NCBI GenBank assembly: GCA_964016885.1
Contig: OZ024746.1
Location: 70,680,001 to 70,744,000 of the forward strand
Reading direction: 5' to 3'
DNA: 64,000 nucleotides
Source: Eledone cirrhosa
Taxonomy: Eukaryota
Shown: positions 1 through 61,070 of the stretch, one piece after another
How the letters are laid out: every line of letters starts with the position of its first letter
Numbering within the stretch: position 1 is the stretch's first letter
Made by a program: the position numbers and the translations under genes
The notes under the pieces: model-generated
The model's input: only the letters and a program-made list of their open reading frames with translations
The model's database searches: none
What the model was told of the DNA's origin: nothing

Positions 1-815
1 GCCAGAGATATCAGCCAAATCTCTTTCAGATCTTAGCCTGAAGTTTTAATCAAATATATGCAACACTTTTTCTCAAGTTCAACATGTAACTCTTTACTGT
101 TATTGTTATCTAAATACCAGTCAAGGAGCTTTGTGTCTTTGGTGATGATGATGATGAAACTGCTTTCTGAATGCAGTTTAGTACGCTATCTCATCACCAT
201 GCAATTTACTATGTAGACAAACCTCTATACCAGCAACAATAAAACATAAAATACATCAACTCCGCACTAATTAATGCCATTAAGTTTACTGTCATCTAAA
301 TATATATATTATCTAAATGTGTGTGGAAACTACTATCACAGAGGCATCTTCCTCATTCAAACGTGTTTTTCTCCTATTGATAAATGTGTTCTAGTTTTTT
401 CTCAAATCCTACATAACCTAAAATTATTGATCAATAGACATGTTGTAATAAGGAATTGACATAATGTCATTGATCATTTACTCATTCATCTGTCTTGTTT
501 TCTGGTCAGAAAAGAAATCAATTATGTTTCTCACATCTCACCTGACTGGTGAATAAGCAGCTAGTCAACTGATTAAGAGCTAAGATTAATAAAACAGAGT
601 AAAAAAAAAATGCTTTGAAACGAGTTTAAAATTACAGCTTTAACTTGAAATCAATTAAGAGTAGTTCAGTATTTCAAAAGTTAAGTAAAATAATCTCAAC
701 CTTATCAAGCACAGACATCTACAACCAGGATGGATAGTAATAAAAATGGCAAAATAGTGATGTATGTCAATGAGTGACTTAAGGGAAAGGACAAGTTGGC
801 TAACAATACAAAAGG

Positions 816-38683: not shown

Positions 38684-38887
38684 ATAGGAATGAGTAGTAC
38701 CCCGACGGCTGAGCTCAAGCCGTTTTGACGGCTAATTCTGGACTAAATTTAGTCCAGAATTAGCCGTCGAAATGGCTTGAGCTCAGCCGTCGGGGTCCTA
38801 CTCATTCCTATTACCCACTCTATTACCCTAAGTATTGAGTACTTTGGTGCATTATGGTCCACCTGGTTCCTTACCACATTTCCTCCG

Positions 38888-38890
<3 letters not shown>
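38684..38890 (+). mobile_element. Fold-back fragment of the Penelope-like 3' tail
   Basis: 128 bp loopless palindrome (64 bp arms, 3 mismatches). 38748-38890 is homologous to 42742-42885. Confidence 0.85.
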
Positions 38891-39288: not shown

Positions 39289-39473
39289 ATAAAATATATA
39301 TATATATATATATATCATCATCATCATCATCACCGTTTTACGTCCGTTCTTCCACGCTAGCATGGGTTAGACGGGTTGTCCTGTTGTGGGCAGTGTCTGG
39401 TCGGCTGACCATGCCTTGCTCATACAGGAACTGATATATATATATATATACATATACATATACATATATATAT

Positions 39474-39600
39474 GAAAAAGTATGACCCCGACGGCAGAGC
39501 TCAAGCCGTTTCGACGTCCAGAAATAGCTGTCGAAACGGCTTGAGTTCTGCCGTCGGGGTCATACTTTTTCCTATTTCCCACTCTACTACCCTTTGTTAT
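39474..39600 (+). mobile_element. Second fold-back fragment of the Penelope-like 3' tail
   Basis: 42 bp arms (39474-39515 and 39530-39571) with a 14 nt loop, embedded in (TA)n. Confidence 0.85.
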
Positions 39601-40900: not shown

Positions 40901-40932
40901 TATATATTTATATAATTATATGTATATGTATA

Positions 40933-42882
40933 CCCCAGTAGTACAGACCGGGTCCGTAAACAACTAATCAACTTCTTCCGAGACTGGGAATTTAAAATCA
41001 CCCTACAAACGTCCCTAACCCGAGTCAATTTCCTGGACGTTACCCATAACCTCGAAAATGATCTGTACTACCCATACAGGAAACCAAACGACAACCTACA
41101 CTACATCCACCACCGCTCTAACCATCCTAGAAACATCACCAATAACCTGGTTAAAAACATTTCCCTCCGCATATCTCGTTTGTCCGCTAATGAGCAGATA
41201 TTCGACAAACACACGCCTCATTACAACCAGGCCCTCAAGTGGAGTGGCTTCCGGGAGGAAATATCCTTTTAACCAGCTTCCCTTAGCGGAACCAGCAGGC
41301 GACACCGCCACTCACGCCACGTAACGTGGTTCAATCCTCCCCATAAGGCTGAGGTGGCAACACCTATCGGGAAAATCTTCTTTAGGCTCCTCGAAAAACA
41401 CTTCCCACTAAAACACCGCTACCACAACATAATCAACAAAAACACCATCAAACTCTCATACAGCACCACACCTAACTTTGCACAAAACATCGTCTCCTCA
41501 AACAACAAAAAACTCAACCCCTATGGAAGAAACAACCTAGACATCAGTGGAGAGCCAACCAGGAGGTGTAACTGCCCTGATAGATCTACGTGCCCCCTCA
41601 ACAACAAATGCTGAGAACGTAACATGATCTACCAGTGCAACGTGAGGACGGACACCTCCAACAAAGCTTATATAGGATTAACCGCTTGTGACTTCAAGAC
41701 CCGGCTCTACCAACACCGACATACTTTCCAAAACTCGGTCCGGTGACTTGCCACTACACTTTCGGGCCACATCTGGGACCTCCAAGATAATAATATAACC
41801 TACAATCTCACTTGGAACTTACTGTCCAGAGCTAACTCTTACACAGGAGGACGCCGTCCGTGTAACTTATGCTCGGAGGAAACATTACAAATGCTGTTTT
41901 CTAAGGACCAACTCCTAAACAAGAAAGACGAACTGGTAACCGCATGCAAACACAGATTGCGTAGGACTTACCTCGCCCTCAAACCCCATAACGACCCAGG
42001 TGGGTAGACAAGGGGTGATACCCCCCCACTTGCCGAATAAGTTAGGGGAAACCCCAGCTTACATAGGTAGATGTATCTCTTTTCTTTTCCTCTTTGTCTT
42101 CTTCCTCCTGTCTCATCCTATCACTTCCTTCCACCCCCTATTTTCTTCCTCATCTGCTTTTCCCCTTTCACCTACCCCGATGCAGCCCATCGAGCCTCTG
42201 TAGCATCAGTTCCCCCACCCCTGTAATTTTAAGATAGAATTGGCCAAATACGTTTTACTAACTACTTATAGTAGATGTGTTAGACCCCTTTAATTTTGTA
42301 TCAGTTTTGTTACTACTCAATTTCTACAAGTTTTTTTCTATTCTCAACTTATTAACCTGTAATTGTAAGATAGTATTGTGATTTTTTTTTATTCATTTCT
42401 CACTATCTAATTTTATATTTTTTTTTTATTTCTTTCTATTATCTTTTATTGTCTCCTACTCTCATTCGAATCACCTATTCTATAACCACCCTTCTCCATT
42501 TCATACACTATCCTTAGATTCTGTTGTATATATATCACGTTTAACGCTTGACCGCTCCACTCACTCCCCTATTGTTCTACAGGCAAGTTCAGCCACCCCT
42601 ACCTCCCACCAAATGCCATGATAGACTTATTTGTGTTTACAACAAATTTTAACCAATCCTTTTGACAACTACAATCTTCCCATATAAGGAAGTACCCCCT
42701 TGACAAGTTCGGCTATTTATTCACCAGGCTAAAAATTCTAATTTAGTCCAGAAATAGTCGTCGGCACGGCTTGAGCTCTGCCGTCGGGGTCATACTTTTT
42801 CCTATTTCCCACTCTACTACTCTAAGTATTGAGTACTCTGGTGCCTTATGGTCCATCTGGTTCCTTACCACAATTCCTTTGT

Positions 42883-42885
<3 letters not shown>
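40933..42885 (+). mobile_element. 5'-truncated Penelope-like element (C-terminal GIY-YIG, CxCx5C linker; Hydra-clade-like) with pLTR tail
   Basis: One frame (40934-42007) with three internal stops: VNFLDVT..YRKPN..YIHHRSNHP (PLE RT), WFNPP, CNCPDRSTCPL, MIYQC...AYIGLT..FKTR...H (GIY-YIG), PCNLC, LLNKKDEL. It is flanked by TA tracts. Confidence 0.92.
42696..42789 (+). ncRNA. Type I hammerhead ribozyme, U3-A8 core variant (GAAA mutated to GGCA in this copy)
   Basis: cccc-TTGACAA-g..cggctattt/aaatagtcg..c-[GGCA; GAAA in the siblings at 38769 and 39533]-cggc/gccg-TC-gggg. Confidence 0.75.
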
Positions 42886-43487: not shown

Positions 43488-46388
43488 TAAATGAACAGTG
43501 CATGAGTCATGATATACACATGTGTGCATGTGTATGGAAGGGGTACATCAGGTGTAGTTTTGGCATATTTCGGGAAGCATGAGTGTCTTAAAGGATGCAG
43601 TGTCTCAGCAGCTAACAACTGACGCAGGCAGTTTGTTCCATGCTTCAGCAACTCTGAGAGTGAAAAAATGTTTACGAAAGTCATGGGAGCTGTGCTGTTT
43701 TCTGATTTTGTAGGCATGTCCACGTGTGTTAGACACATGGAGATCAAAAAGGTGCTCAGGGTTGTTGTTGGCGAGATGGTTAATAACTTTGTGGGAGTTT
43801 ACCAAGTCCATTGCCAGACGTCGGAGCTTCAATGAATCCATGCCCAGGGAAGCAAGGCGTTCAGAGTATGGTAGGTGTCTGATGGAGGGTATGCGCTTTG
43901 TTGCACGTCTCTGAACAGTTTCCAGGCGGTCAATGTTCTGAGCAAGATAGGGGTTCCAGACTGATGATGCGAATTCCAAGTGTGATCGTACTATAGCTGT
44001 ATACAGTTTTAAATAGATGGCTGGAGAGCGGCTAACAAAGGTCTTGCTGAGTGATGCCAAGACACCCTCGGCCTTCTTGACAATCTTAGAGACATGCTTT
44101 GTCCAACGCAAATCGCTGCTGACAGTAATGCCCAGGTCACGCTCACAAGAGGACTTCTTGATATCAGTGTTGTGGAGGGAGTATGTGGACGCTGGATTTT
44201 TCCTCCCAAAATGCATGGTGGTACACTTGTCCACAGCCAGCTTCAGTTGCCAGTCTGTGATCCATTGCTGCATTGTGCCCAGGTCTGATTGTAGGAAAGA
44301 GTTGTAAATTTCAGGATCAGTCCTTTTGATTTTTGATTTCAAGGTACAGCTTGATGTCATCTGCATATTTCAGTACCGTGGCATTCTGTAAGTTGGCATC
44401 TATGTCATTAATATATGCCACAAACAAAAGGGGACCAAGAACAGATCCTGTGGTACACCGATGACATCTCATATGGTGAAGAATGCTGTCCTAGAACCGT
44501 GACTACCTCTTTTCGGCTGAGAATGAAGGATTTCAACCAGTCGAAAAGATCATCGCTAATACCCATTGCAGAGAGTTTTGCCATAAGTCTTTTGTGTGGC
44601 ACAGAATTAAAAGCCTTAGCAAAGTCAAGGTAAACAATATCCACCCATGAGCCGCTGTCAGTGAACCGGGTGATGTCTTCAAGGTGATTCTTAAGGTGAC
44701 GTCGCAGCATTGCAGGTGTAAATTCCATAGTTGTTATGGAATTTGATGTTAGAGATGGTGGAGATGGTACATTCTGATTTTCTTAGGGATCGTCAGTGAT
44801 CTGGCTTGTGTGGGGATTGCGAAGAGGACCAACTGGAGAGTGAGGTCTCTGCTTTGAATGAACATATTTCCAGAACACCTTACTGTCAGGATTGGTTGCT
44901 ATGCACTGTTCAAATTCAAGCACTGCCTTCTTTGTCACTTGCTTGAGATGGTTAGAAAATTTATTCCGCTTTTTTCTGTTGGCATCTGATTTATGCAGTT
45001 TATATTCCTGTTCAGCGTTCCGACGTTCTTTCCTGGCAAGTTGGACCGCTGAAGTTTCCCAAATTGCACTTTTGGTGTGGTTTTTTTTCTGCTTACGTGG
45101 CACTGATGCTGCACACGCTATCCATATTGAGTCCAGGATGCTCTGGAGTATAGTGTTCAGATCTCCAGAGTTATACATCTCATGCCAGTTTGGGCGCTGT
45201 AGCTCAGTGCAGTACAAGTTCCAATCTGCTTTCTTCCAATCAAAGCAAGCCGAGTGGAGATGGCTCTGGTTTTTGTTGCTGCCCGCAAGAGCCAGATTGG
45301 CAATGATCATAGCATGATCAGAGTCACCTAGAGGTTCCTCAGTAGTACAACTGATAACTACTTCAGGAGAAGTGGTGAAGAGCAGGTCCAAAGTGTTGTC
45401 ACCTCTTGTTGGAGAGGTGACCACTTGTGACCAGTTTGAGTCCAGCACTAGTTCAAGGAAATTGTTTGCAATGTGTTTATTGCAGGTGACTTCAATCATC
45501 TCAGGATGATTGAAGTCACCTGCAATAAACACATAAGTGGCTGTTTTCTTGGCAGCAACTCTGAGGATATCGCAAAGCTGTGTGTCCTGATGGTAATTTG
45601 GGGGGCGATAAACAACACCAAGCAGAAGTGTTGACATGGTCATACGTATGTCACAAAAAAAAACTTCTTCCTGTGATTCGTTCAAATCAACGCAAGGAAT
45701 TACCGAAAAGTTAGAACGAACGTAGACCATCACACCACCACCACGGCGATTAATGCGGTCCTTGCGGAAAAGGTTGTACCCAGTAATGCTGAAAACCCCA
45801 TCACAGAGTAAGGAATGTGCCCATGTTTCCATCACTGTGATGAAGTCAGGGTTGATGCTTCTGACGTAGGAGTCAAACAGATGTATCTTGTTGCATAAAC
45901 TGCGAGCATTTAAGGACAACAATTTGTACCCTGCTTGCAGCTTATGATGGTGTGTAGAGGGTGGTAGGTTGTTCTGGTTTAGTTTCCCAGAGTTGTTGCA
46001 GTTTTTTCATTGCCAGTTATTGTGGGTAGAGCACACTCAGACCAGCTGGTATCTCTCTTCCACGTTTCACCAGCCTTAACAAACCTCCAGATCTGCCCAT
46101 CATCACGCAGACTAAAACTTTCATGTTGTGCTGAGTTCCGATTCAAGGAAGCTGCAGCACGTAGCTTTGGGGTGGTAGGCCTGGGCGTGTTCGGAAGGTA
46201 ATCCGATTCTCACGCCCAGATTTAACAGAGGCCAGATGGTATGAGATTGCCTCAGCGGGGTCCGAAAAAGACAGCCTGATGAGTCTGGGTTTTGGACCAA
46301 GCCGACCAAGGAGGAGAGCACCTTTTGGGGGAACACAGCCTAGGTCTTTGGCTGAGCTGGCAGCAAATGCCTGAAGATCAGCCTTGTC
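43488..46388 (-). mobile_element. Second copy of the CR1/L2-group LINE, 5' truncated with an internal deletion
   Basis: Colinear with about 6148-9338. It has a 379 aa APE ORF (44783-45922) and a 253 aa RT C-terminal ORF, and lacks about 350 bp corresponding to about 7322-7668. Confidence 0.93.
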
Positions 46389-46724: not shown

Positions 46725-47028
46725 TCTGCCGGTTCCAATGACGAATAACCCAATTGTTCATACAATAGAACAATTTGCTTATGAAATTAACAAGTGGCTG
46801 AGCATTCTGCAGACATGTGCACCATTAATATAGTTCTAAGGAAGATTCAGTGTGACACAATGTGTAACAAGGCTGACCCTTTGAATCACAGGTAGAAATC
46901 ATTTTTGACAGCTGAATGGATTGAAGCAATGTGAAGTAAAGTGTCTTGCTCAAAGACACAATGGGAATTGAACACACAGCGTTATGCTCATGAGCAAAAT
47001 ATCCTAACCACTAAACCATATGCCTTCA
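46725..47028 (-). mobile_element. tRNA-derived SINE (family B)
   Basis: Homologous to the 17930 copy; minus-strand A-box tggtttagtgg. Confidence 0.75.
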
Positions 47029-52934: not shown

Positions 52935-52970
52935 CTTTACCGGTTTCGCAGTTCTTCTGCTTTTCAAAAG
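52935..52970 (-). ncRNA. Mirror copy of the same minimal hammerhead
   Basis: Exact reverse complement of 53041-53076. Confidence 0.65.
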
Positions 52971-53040
52971 TAGAGTTGAGGTGGAGGGTCTGTTGTTTTT
53001 CTCACATCTGATGTGAGAAAAACCACAGACCTCAACTCTA

Positions 53041-53076
53041 CTTTTGAAAAGCAGAAGAACTGCGAAACCGGTAAAG
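53041..53076 (+). ncRNA. Minimal type I hammerhead ribozyme, U3-A8 core variant
   Basis: ctt-TTGAAAA-GCAG aagaa CTGC-GAAA-CCGG-TA-aag; helix III ACCGGT is palindromic (dimer type). Confidence 0.65.
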
Positions 53077-53275: not shown

Positions 53276-53378
53276 ATATATTAAAATAACAGATTAAAGT
53301 TTAAGTAAAGTATCGCTGCTTTCACCCTTAACGTTAAGGGTGAAAGCAGCGATTCTTTACTTAAACTTTAATCTGTTA

Positions 53379-57885: not shown

Positions 57886-58649
57886 ATATATATATATATA
57901 TATGTATACACACAGACTGCCCACTGTAAGAAATGCTTGTAAATAAGATATTTTTAGCTAAAGAAAGTTATAAGTTTACCTTGATAAGAGACATTACAAT
58001 GCTGAATATCAGGTCATAGTAGATTGTACAAAGTCCAACTATTTATGAATTATATAAGAGATGTAATTATGAATATATTGTTAGATTCTAGATATTTCTC
58101 TTAGACCCCCCAAAAAATTTTATTATATAATAGATTCTCTCTCTCTCCCCCCTCTCTCTCTCTATATATATACACACACACACCCATGCTAGCATGGAAA
58201 ATGGCCATTAAATGATGATGATGATATATATATCATCATCATCATCATCGTTTAATGCCTAGTCAACAATGTAAAGAGTTGTGTTGGTGACAAGGTAAAA
58301 AGCACCCAGTCTACATTGTAAAGTGATCGTTTTGGAGCCATGACAAAAAAGCTCCCAGTCCACACTGTAAAATGGTTGTGTTGCTGTCTTGACAAAAAGC
58401 GCGCAATCCACGCTGTAAAGTGGTTGCTTTGGTACCACGATAAAAAGCACCTAGTCTACACTGTAAATGTGGTTGGCATTAGAAAGGGCATCCAGCCATA
58501 GACACCAAGCCAGAAACAGTTTTGTATGAGCAAGATATAGTCACCTGATCTCACTTGTCTCACTATAGGACAACTCGTCTAACCCGTGCTAGTATGGAAA
58601 AATGGACATTAAACAATGATGATGATGATGAGGATGATATATATATATA

Positions 58650-60380
58650 TCATCATCATCATCATCGTTTAACGTCCGTGTTCCATGCTTGCATGGGTTT
58701 GGATGGGAGTTTTCCCACTTGAGGCAAGAGTGGTTGTCTTGCTCGCATAGGACTGTCTGGCGGGTTTTCTACAGTTGGATGCCCTTCCTAACACCAACCA
58801 CATTTACAGTGTGGGGCTGGGAGGTTTTTACCATGTTGCCTACACGGCCACATTACAGCGTGGACTGTCTGGCAGGTTTTCTACAGCTGGATGCCCTTCC
58901 TAACACCAACCACATTTACAGTGTGGGACTGGGACGTTTTTACCGTGTTGCCTACACGGTCACATTACAGCGTGGACTGTGTGTTTTTTTTTCGTGACAC
59001 CTACACGATCTCATTTGTTTCGGCCTGGATTTTGTGGCACCAACATAACTTTACATTGAAAGGGGCGGTGTGGATGGGGTGGGGGTGGTGGGACGGGGGT
59101 GTATTTTGTTAGAGATGCCTACTGACTGTAGTAGGTTTTACTTTGTATTTAGGTAACGCGGGTCTTCTCTGTTACTGAGTACCGCCAAAGGTCTCGGTCC
59201 AGTGACATTGTCTTGGAGAGGTGTAAGTGTGTGAGGTCGGAATTTATCAGCTCGTCCCAGGTTTTTCTGGGTCTGCCTACTCCGTGGCTACCATCTATCT
59301 TTATTGCCCTGCACTTTGTTATACAGCTGTCGTCTTTCATGCGCATCACGTGACCATACCAACGTAGCCTTCTCTCGAGTAAACAACATCTGATCCCTCT
59401 TATTTCTAATTTTTTCCTTAGTTCGTTTATGCTTTGCCGTTCGCGTATATTACTATTACACATCCAGCGGAGCATGCAAGCTTCGTTCCTCTCTAGTCTG
59501 CGTATATCCTCTGCACACAATGCCCAGGTCTCACTGCCATGCAACATTGCTGTTCGTATGCAGGCATCATACAACCTGCCTTTCACTTTTAGGGAGAACC
59601 CTTTAGCGGCTAATAGTGGTATAAGCTCTCTGAACTTTTTCCATCCAGTTCTGACTCTAGCTACTGTACTTTCAGAGCACCCTCCCCCACTGCTGATTTT
59701 GTCACCCAGGTAACGGAAGCTGTCCACTATTTCTATAGAACCCTCTGCGCAGTTGAAAGAGCTAGTATTTTGTGGGCACTTGCTGCTACTTATTGCACCA
59801 GAGCACCAGCCACATGTAAAATCTGTGTTCTTAGTTAGCTTACCTGTGATCCCACTACATCTTTTATGCACCCATACTTTACATTTGGGACATAAAATGG
59901 AGTTTCTACCTACGCCTTTCCTACACACTGAGCATGGCCATTTCCCGGAAGGGACCGGTGCCTTATTTTCTTTCCTACAAACTAGAACTTTAGTCTTAGC
60001 CATGTTAATTTTAAGGCCTTTTGATTCTAGGCCATGCTTCCATGTTTGGAATTTCTTCTCTAGCTCAGCCATTGATTCAGCTATGAGCGTTAGGTCATCT
60101 GCGTATAGGAGTTCCCATGGGCAGCCGGTCTTGAACTCCTCTGTTATAGCCTGAAGAGCAATAATGAATAGTAGGGGGCTAAGAACAGAGCCCTGATGGA
60201 CACCAACTTTTACGCTAAACTCTTCACTATATTCGTTGTTAATTCTAACCTTGCTCACTGTTTCTTTATACATGGCTTGTATAGCTCTCACAAGCCATTC
60301 GTTAACACCTAGTTTTCTAAGAGCCCACCAGATAATGGAACGGGGGACTCTGTCGAAGGCTTTCTCCAAGTCGACAAAGG
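58650..60380 (-). mobile_element. 5'-truncated RTE-clade LINE with an open RT frame (59149-60380) and 3' UTR
   Basis: AFVDLEKAFD, GVHQGSVLSPLLF, LLYADD, FRYLG, HGSETW, RRLRWYGHV and GRPRKTW with no stops over about 410 codons, and a (GAT)n tail. Confidence 0.95.
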
Positions 60381-61070
60381 CTATATATATATATACATAT
60401 ATAAAGCAAACAGACCAATCAAAGAGGAGAGGAAAGTGATTAGTTAAGAAAATTACAAGCCAGTAGAGAGAGGGTTAGTGTGCTCAATGCGTATAGTGTG
60501 CTCAATGCGTTAGTGTGCTCAATGCGTATGTACTCTGTACATGCCAAACTTTTACTTCTGCTTCATGTCAGCTAGTTTTACACGCCAAAATCTTAGATAC
60601 ACTATACCCCCCACCTAAGTAATGTCAGGGTCTCCTCAAATAATTTATTAATAGCATTGTTGTAATTGTTGTTATTGTTCTAACTGAATGCCATTACTAC
60701 TTCATATAGTAGCCTGTATATTCTCTTCATTCTCGCACGCTCCGAAGAACTGACTGGTTATAATTTTGTATTGGCGATCGAGTAACGTGAAAACAAGCGA
60801 ATAGCGATCTCTAGACCTACCAGTTCAGAGAAACAATTGTCAGCTATGAGATTAAAAACCTTTTTTGTATAGCAAACCATGTCAACCTTCTTTTCTGATT
60901 TATTATTACTCCAAGTGTTTACAACATAGGAATTACAGCATACCCGCAGCATCACTATGAAAACGCCTTGTTGAGTCAAACCAAGCCAAGCGTTGATATC
61001 ATCCACTACCCGGAATACCATAACTGGACTATACCTAAGTGGGCTGCATCTAACTATTATTTGTTACCCC

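What the first reader, a model, noticed from the sequence alone, without database searches (positions are those of the whole stretch)
42696..42789. Penelope-like element tail encodes a hammerhead ribozyme with a compensated U3-A8 catalytic core
Seen: the 3' tail folds as a complete type I hammerhead. It has stem I cccc/gggg, core TTGACAA instead of CTGANGA, an ~11 bp stem II, stem III acggc/gccgt and a GUC cleavage triplet. This copy has GGCA where two sibling fragments (38769, 39533) have GAAA, so the family consensus is intact. Known: C3-G8 is a Watson-Crick pair in the active hammerhead, U3-A8 is a tolerated compensatory variant, and PLE pseudo-LTRs carry hammerheads. Inference: this is a functional variant that CUGANGA-based searches would miss, and it has a full helix III rather than the minimal one typical of PLEs.
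Basis: partly seen in the sequence, partly recalled or inferred. Interest (0 to 1): 0.8.

Follow-up and report, generated by a model that had tools for sequence, protein, structure and literature searches.

The report
Retroelement hammerhead with drifting core pair
This is a broken copy of a hammerhead (self-cutting RNA) motif at the tail of a Penelope-like jumping gene; its U3-A8 core is an already described variant, but the family kept multiplying through a long phase with that core pair mismatched and then restored it, so the ribozyme is likely weak and useful rather than essential.

Summary
The motif is there as described: a type I hammerhead fold at 42696-42789, in the 3' end of a truncated Hydra-clade Penelope-like element inserted in (TA)n. 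The window copy is defective (GGC for GAA, private to it). Across six subfamilies the twelve other core positions never change while loop II and flanks do, and stem II covaries, so the fold is under selection. U3-A8 in Penelope-element hammerheads was published in 2014, and U3-A8 was low-activity in one mutational scan, so 'functional variant' is unproven and not new. The two 'sibling fragments' are palindromic stubs without the 5' core. What is new: exact genome-wide matches number 4646 U3-A8, about 1119 mismatched C3·A8, 50 U3·G8 and only 9 canonical C3-G8. A tree built without the ribozyme core puts the C3·A8 copies as a ladder between older and younger U3-A8 subfamilies: the master lineage broke the pair, multiplied for about 0.1 substitutions per site, then reverted to U3-A8 instead of the canonical pair. 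Copy ends lie 17 and 97 nt past the cut site, so integrated templates were uncut there. Best reading: a weak, probably assisted ribozyme, selected but dispensable in the short run. Cleavage is untested.

The parts
40932..42884 (+). 5'-truncated Hydra-clade Penelope-like element (subfamily A), flanked by AT/(TA)n runs
   Evidence: Homology to intact copies from 40932 to 42884; flanks read
40952..42007 (+). Decayed ORF end: RT thumb, CxCX5C linker, GIY-YIG endonuclease, CxxC and CxH motifs; in-frame stops at 41270, 41612, 41744
   Evidence: Translation; stops; weak Pfam GIY-YIG E=0.0084, below cut-off; intact 719-aa relative at L121:4369-6528
42696..42699 (+). Hammerhead stem I, 5' strand (pairs with 42786-42789)
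   Evidence: 94.7% of cells paired, no two-sided change
42700..42706 (+). Core positions 3-9, U3 U4 G5 A6 C7 A8 A9; position 7 varies freely among subfamilies
42707..42762 (+). Stem II (G10.1-C11.1, 2x1 internal loop, 9 bp) with a 33-nt variable loop II; private C-to-T at 42758 leaves a G-U pair
   Evidence: (3 pairs with two-sided change)
42763..42765 (+). Core positions 12-14, GGC in this copy instead of GAA (two private changes; predicted inactive)
42766..42784 (+). Stem III (5 bp including A15.1-U16.1) with a 9-nt loop holding the palindrome GAGCTC
   Evidence: 97.4% paired; palindrome unchanged in 6 of 6 subfamilies
42785..42789 (+). C17 (predicted cut after 42785) and stem I 3' strand
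   Evidence: cut site inferred from hammerhead numbering
42803..42884 (+). 80-nt 'tail' between the two family end points, about 17 and 97 nt past the cut site
   Evidence: 108 and 108 of 262 ends
38684..38890 (.). Palindromic stub of a B/M-type subfamily: 3' half of the ribozyme head to head, plus tail; no 5' core
39470..39593 (.). Shorter palindromic stub of the A-type 3' end; no 5' core

Best explanation
This is a defective copy of the type I hammerhead fold in the 3' pseudo-LTR of a Hydra-clade Penelope-like retrotransposon, whose family-wide U3-A8 core likely makes a weak, probably protein- or dimer-assisted ribozyme that is selected over the long run but was dispensable for long stretches of amplification. 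Shown: the fold, its place in the element, conservation of the core, stem II covariation, the counts of the four 3/8 states, the U3-A8 to C3·A8 to U3-A8 order on the tree, and element ends downstream of the cut site. Inferred: tandem units are transcribed; occasional cleavage after GUC would cut multimeric RNA into units; reverse transcription would start 17 or 97 nt downstream of the cut site on RNA that is still uncut at its 3' ribozyme, so fast cleavage would destroy templates and a slow ribozyme is tolerated or favoured. Untested: any cleavage.
For: Core: 0 of 12 invariant hammerhead positions change between six subfamily majorities, against 38 of 69 columns of loop II and flanks (Fisher p=2.6e-4; D, E, M were sampled by core patterns, but D found by upstream DNA alone has the same majority at all 12, U3-A8 in 27 of 31). 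Position 7, the free one, takes all four bases. Stem II: 3 pairs with two-sided changes, 30 cells versus 18.3 shuffled, 0 of 500. Natural copies of the youngest subfamily fold as the hammerhead in 10 of 11 cases. State counts 4646 / 1069+50 / 50 / 9. Tree from ORF end plus upstream UTR: C3·A8 copies form a ladder of starred forks between subfamily A and B/C; one C3 clade rejected, AU p=1.5e-4, 2 changes; an independent segment set agrees. Ends: 108 at +14..22, 108 at +94..101, 1 within 10 nt of the cut, of 262. PMC11167929: a Poseidon-clade hammerhead cleaves only with the element protein, core mutants do not affect insertion in vitro, and reverse transcription starts at two internal sites that bound the tail. 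PMC4209133: animal Penelope hammerheads cleave poorly in vitro.
Against: No cleavage data; no RNA reads were available. Stems I and III show no two-sided changes, and the number of covarying pairs is not above shuffles (3 versus 4.2). RNAalifold does not recover stem I or the three-way junction. Only 8 of 26 A, 3 of 14 B, 1 of 4 D and 0 of 18 C3·A8 copies are predicted to form all three stems. Conservation could reflect protein binding rather than catalysis. The reversion is one event and a common C-to-T transition; a short gene conversion is not excluded. The AU test group was fixed after seeing the tree, with three singleton mutants dropped.
Confidence: 0.6

Rival explanations
1. The fold no longer cleaves in any subfamily; it is kept as a structure that the element protein binds near the reverse-transcription start sites, so the 3/8 pair drifts among near-neutral states.
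For: About 1119 C3·A8 matches and a U3·G8 subfamily (22 of 25) amplified; canonical C3-G8 never spread; U3-A8 did not rescue in PMC9901934; no excess of copy ends or starts at the cut site; hammerhead activity dispensable in vitro.
Against: The invariant set is exactly the catalytic set (G5, A6, A9, G12-A15.1, U16.1, C17) while position 7 is free; the lineage returned to a Watson-Crick 3-8 pair and U3-A8 is the majority state from the oldest to the youngest subfamily sampled.
Confidence: 0.25
2. One reading: an efficient, monomeric U3-A8 hammerhead that is required to process element transcripts.
For: Five-pair helix III; B and C copies fold as the hammerhead in the minimum-energy structure; U3-A8 reported active in vitro (cited in PMC3088659; the primary paper was not available); fungal Penelope hammerheads with long helix III cleave as monomers.
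Against: The mismatched C3·A8 state held the trunk for about 0.1 substitutions per site; both element ends lie downstream of the cut site; loop III keeps a dimer-type palindrome; low activity of U3-A8.
Confidence: 0.15

Closest known systems
U3-A8 minimal hammerheads of Schistosoma mansoni Cercyon Penelope-like elements (Cervera and de la Pena 2014, PMC4209133)
   Same: Type I hammerhead in the pseudo-LTR, U3-A8 core, G10.1-C11.1 pair, long stem II, short stem I, palindromic loop III.
   Different: Here helix III has 5 bp and a 9-nt loop instead of being minimal, loop II is 33 nt, stem II has a 2x1 internal loop after the first pair, and mismatched 3/8 states amplified as subfamilies.
Hydra-clade Penelope-like elements and their hammerheads (Craig et al. 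2021, PMC8557442, Files S1-S2)
   Same: C-terminal GIY-YIG, RWK-like (RWR), DKT, CxCX5C linker, CxxC and CxH, (TA)n targets, inverted 5' copies, hammerhead near the 3' end with 3-4 bp stem III.
   Different: All 26 Hydra rows listed in File S2 have a CUGANGA core and 1-3 nt loop III; this family has U3-A8, a 9-nt loop III, a 0.7-1.1 kb 3' UTR, a 3.5-kb unit and an 80-nt tail.
Poseidon_Ac hammerhead of Anolis (Frangieh et al. 2024, PMC11167929)
   Same: Hammerhead upstream of two element end points that bound a tail; likely the same uncut-template logic.
   Different: That one has C3-G8, overlaps the start codon and was tested; this one lies about 190 nt before the next ATG in tandem units and is untested.

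Membership tests
Type I hammerhead ribozyme | Three helices around the core, open at stem I | tested here: met
   minimum-energy fold in natural B and C copies. Not met as a predicted fold in the window copy.
Type I hammerhead ribozyme | Invariant U4 G5 A6, A9, G12 A13 A14, A15.1-U16.1, H17 | tested here: met
   Family majorities, 12 of 12 positions in six subfamilies. The window copy fails at A13 and A14.
Type I hammerhead ribozyme | Watson-Crick pair between positions 3 and 8 | tested here: inconclusive
   Met as U-A in 4646 matches; broken in about 1119 (C·A) and wobble in 50 (U·G); canonical C-G in 9.
Type I hammerhead ribozyme | Loop I / loop II tertiary contact | not tested
   Stem I extension and loop II vary among subfamilies; no contact was modelled.
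Type I hammerhead ribozyme | Self-cleavage after N17 | not testable with these tools
   No raw RNA reads hold the element.
Rfam hammerhead families | Covariance-model match | tested here: not met
   No hammerhead family among 60, 19 and 25 weak matches for the window, an intact U3-A8 copy and a natural C3-G8 copy.
Minimal (min-HHR) Penelope hammerheads | Helix III absent or 1-2 bp | tested here: not met
   5 bp, 97.4% of cells paired.
Minimal (min-HHR) Penelope hammerheads | Palindromic loop III allowing dimers | tested here: met
   GAGCTC unchanged in 6 of 6 subfamilies; two stem III hairpins cofold 14-17 kcal/mol below two monomers in A and B copies, 5 in a D copy with a damaged loop (naive energy comparison).
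Hydra-clade PLE | Single ORF, RT then C-terminal GIY-YIG | tested here: met
   719-aa ORF with YRDD and AYIG; Atlas look-alikes carry GIY-YIG/RVT_1; Pfam gave no hit on the full ORF and a sub-threshold GIY-YIG hit on the window piece.
Hydra-clade PLE | RWK motif, DKT for DKG, CxCX5C linker, CxxC and CxH in EN | tested here: met
   RWR, DKT, CNCPDRSIC, CNLC, CKH read against the definitions and the alignment text (by eye).
Hydra-clade PLE | (TA)n insertion, tandem and inverted copies, tail | tested here: met
Hydra-clade PLE | Placement in the Hydra clade on an RT tree | not tested
   Reference proteins were only seen in a supplement and were not available as sequences for a tree.

The most novel reading that the evidence does not exclude
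A retroelement lineage holds its hammerhead in a deliberately attenuated state: it sat one transition away from the canonical C3-G8 core twice (U3·G8 in subfamily E, C3·A8 for about 0.1 substitutions per site on the trunk), never fixed it, and went back to U3-A8, because a fast ribozyme would cut off both reverse-transcription start sites. The genome then stores a dated natural mutational series of the 3-8 pair that can settle whether Penelope-element hammerheads are needed, tuned down or parasitic.
Probability: 0.3. Interest if true: 0.7.

Novelty: new variant of a known kind. Interest (0 to 1): 0.45.

Why it matters
Why Penelope-like elements carry hammerheads is stated as unresolved in PMC8557442 and PMC11167929 (passages read). 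This family supplies natural, ordered variants of the key core pair in one sequence background, plus intact young tandem copies, so cleavage rate can be set against evolutionary success directly. It also shows that thousands of such motifs escape both CUGANGA descriptors and Rfam. The U3-A8 variant alone is not news.

Tried and rejected
Rfam: no hammerhead match. Selenocysteine reading of the TGA codons at 41612 and 41744, prompted by Naiad selenoproteins: rejected, intact copies have Arg there. G5U core seen in L048-L051: one duplicated lineage, other B copies have G5. Register with the fifth C as C3 in subfamily A: rejected, B, C, D and E have four C before U3. Register shift in C3·A8 copies (C3 pairing G7, deleted N7): not excluded; 1069 have G7 and 50 another base, which fits simple descent too. 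Idea that C3 traps the core on loop III (CUGAG with CUCAG): weak, median probability 0.22, above 0.5 in 1 of 18. Peak of 5' starts at the cut site: none, 1 of 249 in the 0-9 bin and 2 in the bin before, but the loci were chosen for upstream sequence so the test is biased. Position of subfamily E on trunk or side branch: unresolved (noisy tree with long rows). Expression: no RNA holder listed; two guessed-RNA runs laid 0 contigs; no evidence either way. Papers on 3-8 pair kinetics (Przybilski and Hammann 2007, Nelson and Uhlenbeck 2008a and b, Martick and Scott 2006, Lunse 2017) were not held, so rates for C3·A8 and U3·G8 are not cited. Earlier scan findings: none by sequence or by the narrow words.

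Full report
Observation. Stem II is 10 pairs with a 2x1 internal loop. The window copy has GGC at positions 12-14 and is not predicted to form stem III. A descriptor for such a fold hits 0.02 times per shuffled window. The two 'siblings' at 38684-38890 and 39470-39593 are palindromic stubs lacking the 5' core; stubs of the first kind are a large population in the genome (3517 candidates, 40 scored).

Host element. The motif ends a 5'-truncated element at 40932-42884 between AT-rich runs. Its reading frame has three stops. Intact relatives exist in tandem arrays of about 3.5 kb; one 719-aa ORF shows RWR, DKT, YRDD, a CxCX5C linker, AYIG, CxxC and CxH. These are the diagnostic features of the Hydra clade in PMC8557442 (section 11; supplement alignment passages), compared by eye, not on a tree. 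Pfam found nothing on the full ORF; the Atlas returned GIY-YIG and RT-bearing look-alikes.

Family conservation. In 36 ribozyme instances from the 29 best other loci, G12-A15.1 is intact in 32 and the 5' core is U3-A8 in 35. Six subfamilies were sampled (D, E, A, M, B, C; median within-group distances 0.179, 0.098, 0.029, 0.068, 0.039, 0.010, biased by how each was sampled). On an alignment of 38 natural copies, 91.8% of cells pair, three stem II pairs change on both sides, and slid controls fall to 26-56%; stems I and III show no two-sided change, and the count of covarying pairs does not beat shuffles. RNAalifold recovers stems II and III in part but not stem I. Between subfamily majorities 0 of 12 invariant core positions change against 38 of 69 loop and flank columns. 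D, E and M were collected with core-containing patterns, so this is partly circular; D collected by upstream DNA alone gives the same majorities and U3-A8 in 27 of 31. Position 7 takes all four bases. Loop III keeps GAGCTC in all six subfamilies, which could support dimers. With an intact core, all three stems are predicted in 10 of 11 C, 8 of 26 A, 3 of 14 B, 1 of 4 D, 1 of 7 E (U3·G8) and 0 of 18 M copies; older copies carry more private changes, which confounds this.

The 3-8 pair. Exact genome-wide patterns with shared flanks give U3-A8 4646, C3·A8 1069 with G7 (slightly stricter prefix) plus 50 with another base at 7, U3·G8 50 and C3-G8 9; reversed controls are 0. These are matches, not insertions, since direct and inverted copies both count, and exact patterns favour young copies. 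Most C3-G8 matches sit in the C3·A8 background and look like single-copy mutations. Subfamily E is U3·G8 in 22 of 25. A tree on the ORF end plus upstream UTR, without the core (47 of 53 rows, six near-duplicates dropped), rooted by D, places A-type U3-A8 copies at the base, then a ladder of C3·A8 copies over five nested forks (four starred below the first, one at 93/93) summing to about 0.10 changes per site, then U3-A8 subfamilies B and C inside it. With three singleton mutants also dropped (44 rows), holding the eight C3 rows as one clade is rejected (AU p=1.5e-4) and two changes suffice; the group was fixed after the tree was seen. A second tree on UTR plus ribozyme with columns 3 and 8 masked (79 of 211 instances) repeats the ladder but is noisy and leaves E unplaced between trunk and side branch. 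So the master lineage went U3-A8, C3·A8, U3-A8 (shown by tree; a short conversion instead of a point reversion is not excluded).

Ends. Of 262 instances, 108 end 14-22 nt and 108 end 94-101 nt after C17, 1 within 10 nt, 19 without a nearby (TA) run. This mirrors the two internal reverse-transcription start sites bounding the tail in PMC11167929 (parts 1-2 read), and implies, by inference, that integrated templates were uncut at the 3' ribozyme.

Mechanism. Most likely a weak, assisted ribozyme: selected (catalytic positions fixed, pair restored) but dispensable for long spells (mismatched states amplified). Cleavage would occasionally cut tandem transcripts into units, while fast cleavage would remove both start sites. 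All of this paragraph is inference; no cleavage or expression data were obtained. Rivals: a non-cleaving protein-binding structure (0.25) or an efficient essential monomer (0.15).

Known work. PMC4209133 (parts 1-2 of 4 and supplement part 1 of 3) reports U3-A8 in Cercyon Penelope elements with about 1,300 hits, low in vitro activity of animal motifs, and long helix III in fungal and protist elements. PMC3088659 (section 8) reports natural U3-A8 and cites in vitro activity. [quoted passage not shown] PMC8557442 File S2 lists Hydra hammerheads, all with CUGANGA. PMC6765202 and PMC3884650 were seen as passages, the 2026 retrozyme preprint as part 1 of 5 (its supplements are closed). Ten searches of the open-licence library showed no report of amplified C3·A8 or U3·G8 subfamilies or of a reversion; subscription papers, including Lunse 2017 on Penelope hammerhead variants and the kinetic papers, could not be read and may bear on this.

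Verdict. Observation confirmed, interpretation partly supported. New variant of a known kind. The U3-A8 core is known; the value lies in the ordered natural series of 3-8 states. Interest 0.45.

Noticed in passing
window 42680-42689: A CCATATA(T/A)GG near-palindrome just 5' of stem I is conserved in all six subfamilies; could be a TATA-like promoter element, a small hairpin or a protein site.
   Followed up: no
window 38684-38890 and loci L032-L060: Abundant palindromic stubs fold back at nearly the same point in loop II (52 of 249 starts in one 10-nt bin, sample biased); may be a non-autonomous family or a recurrent fold-back product.
   Followed up: partly
L061-L071 (G000 C20 3.5-4.9 Mb and C27): Identical element copies with a G5U core spaced about 100 kb apart: a segmental or large tandem duplication rather than transposition.
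   Followed up: partly
L121-L122 (G000 C1 91.47-91.49 Mb): Tandem array of about 3542-bp units, several with intact 784-786 codon open frames, ending in a 55-bp tandem repeat made from an ORF fragment.
   Followed up: partly
window 43605-46006, minus strand: Fragments of a LINE-type element: apurinic endonuclease (Pfam E=3e-11) and weak RT.
   Followed up: no
window 59149-60474, minus strand: RT followed by a PHD finger in one 440-aa frame, a less usual domain order for a non-LTR element end.
   Followed up: no
window 53291-53374, 52944-53067, 58581-58699, 45456-45548: Further near-perfect hairpins picked up as weak microRNA-family matches; probably palindromic stubs or MITEs of other families.
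   Followed up: no
window 46953-47025, minus strand: tRNA-like match at the Rfam gathering score (29.1 bits); possibly a SINE head.
   Followed up: no
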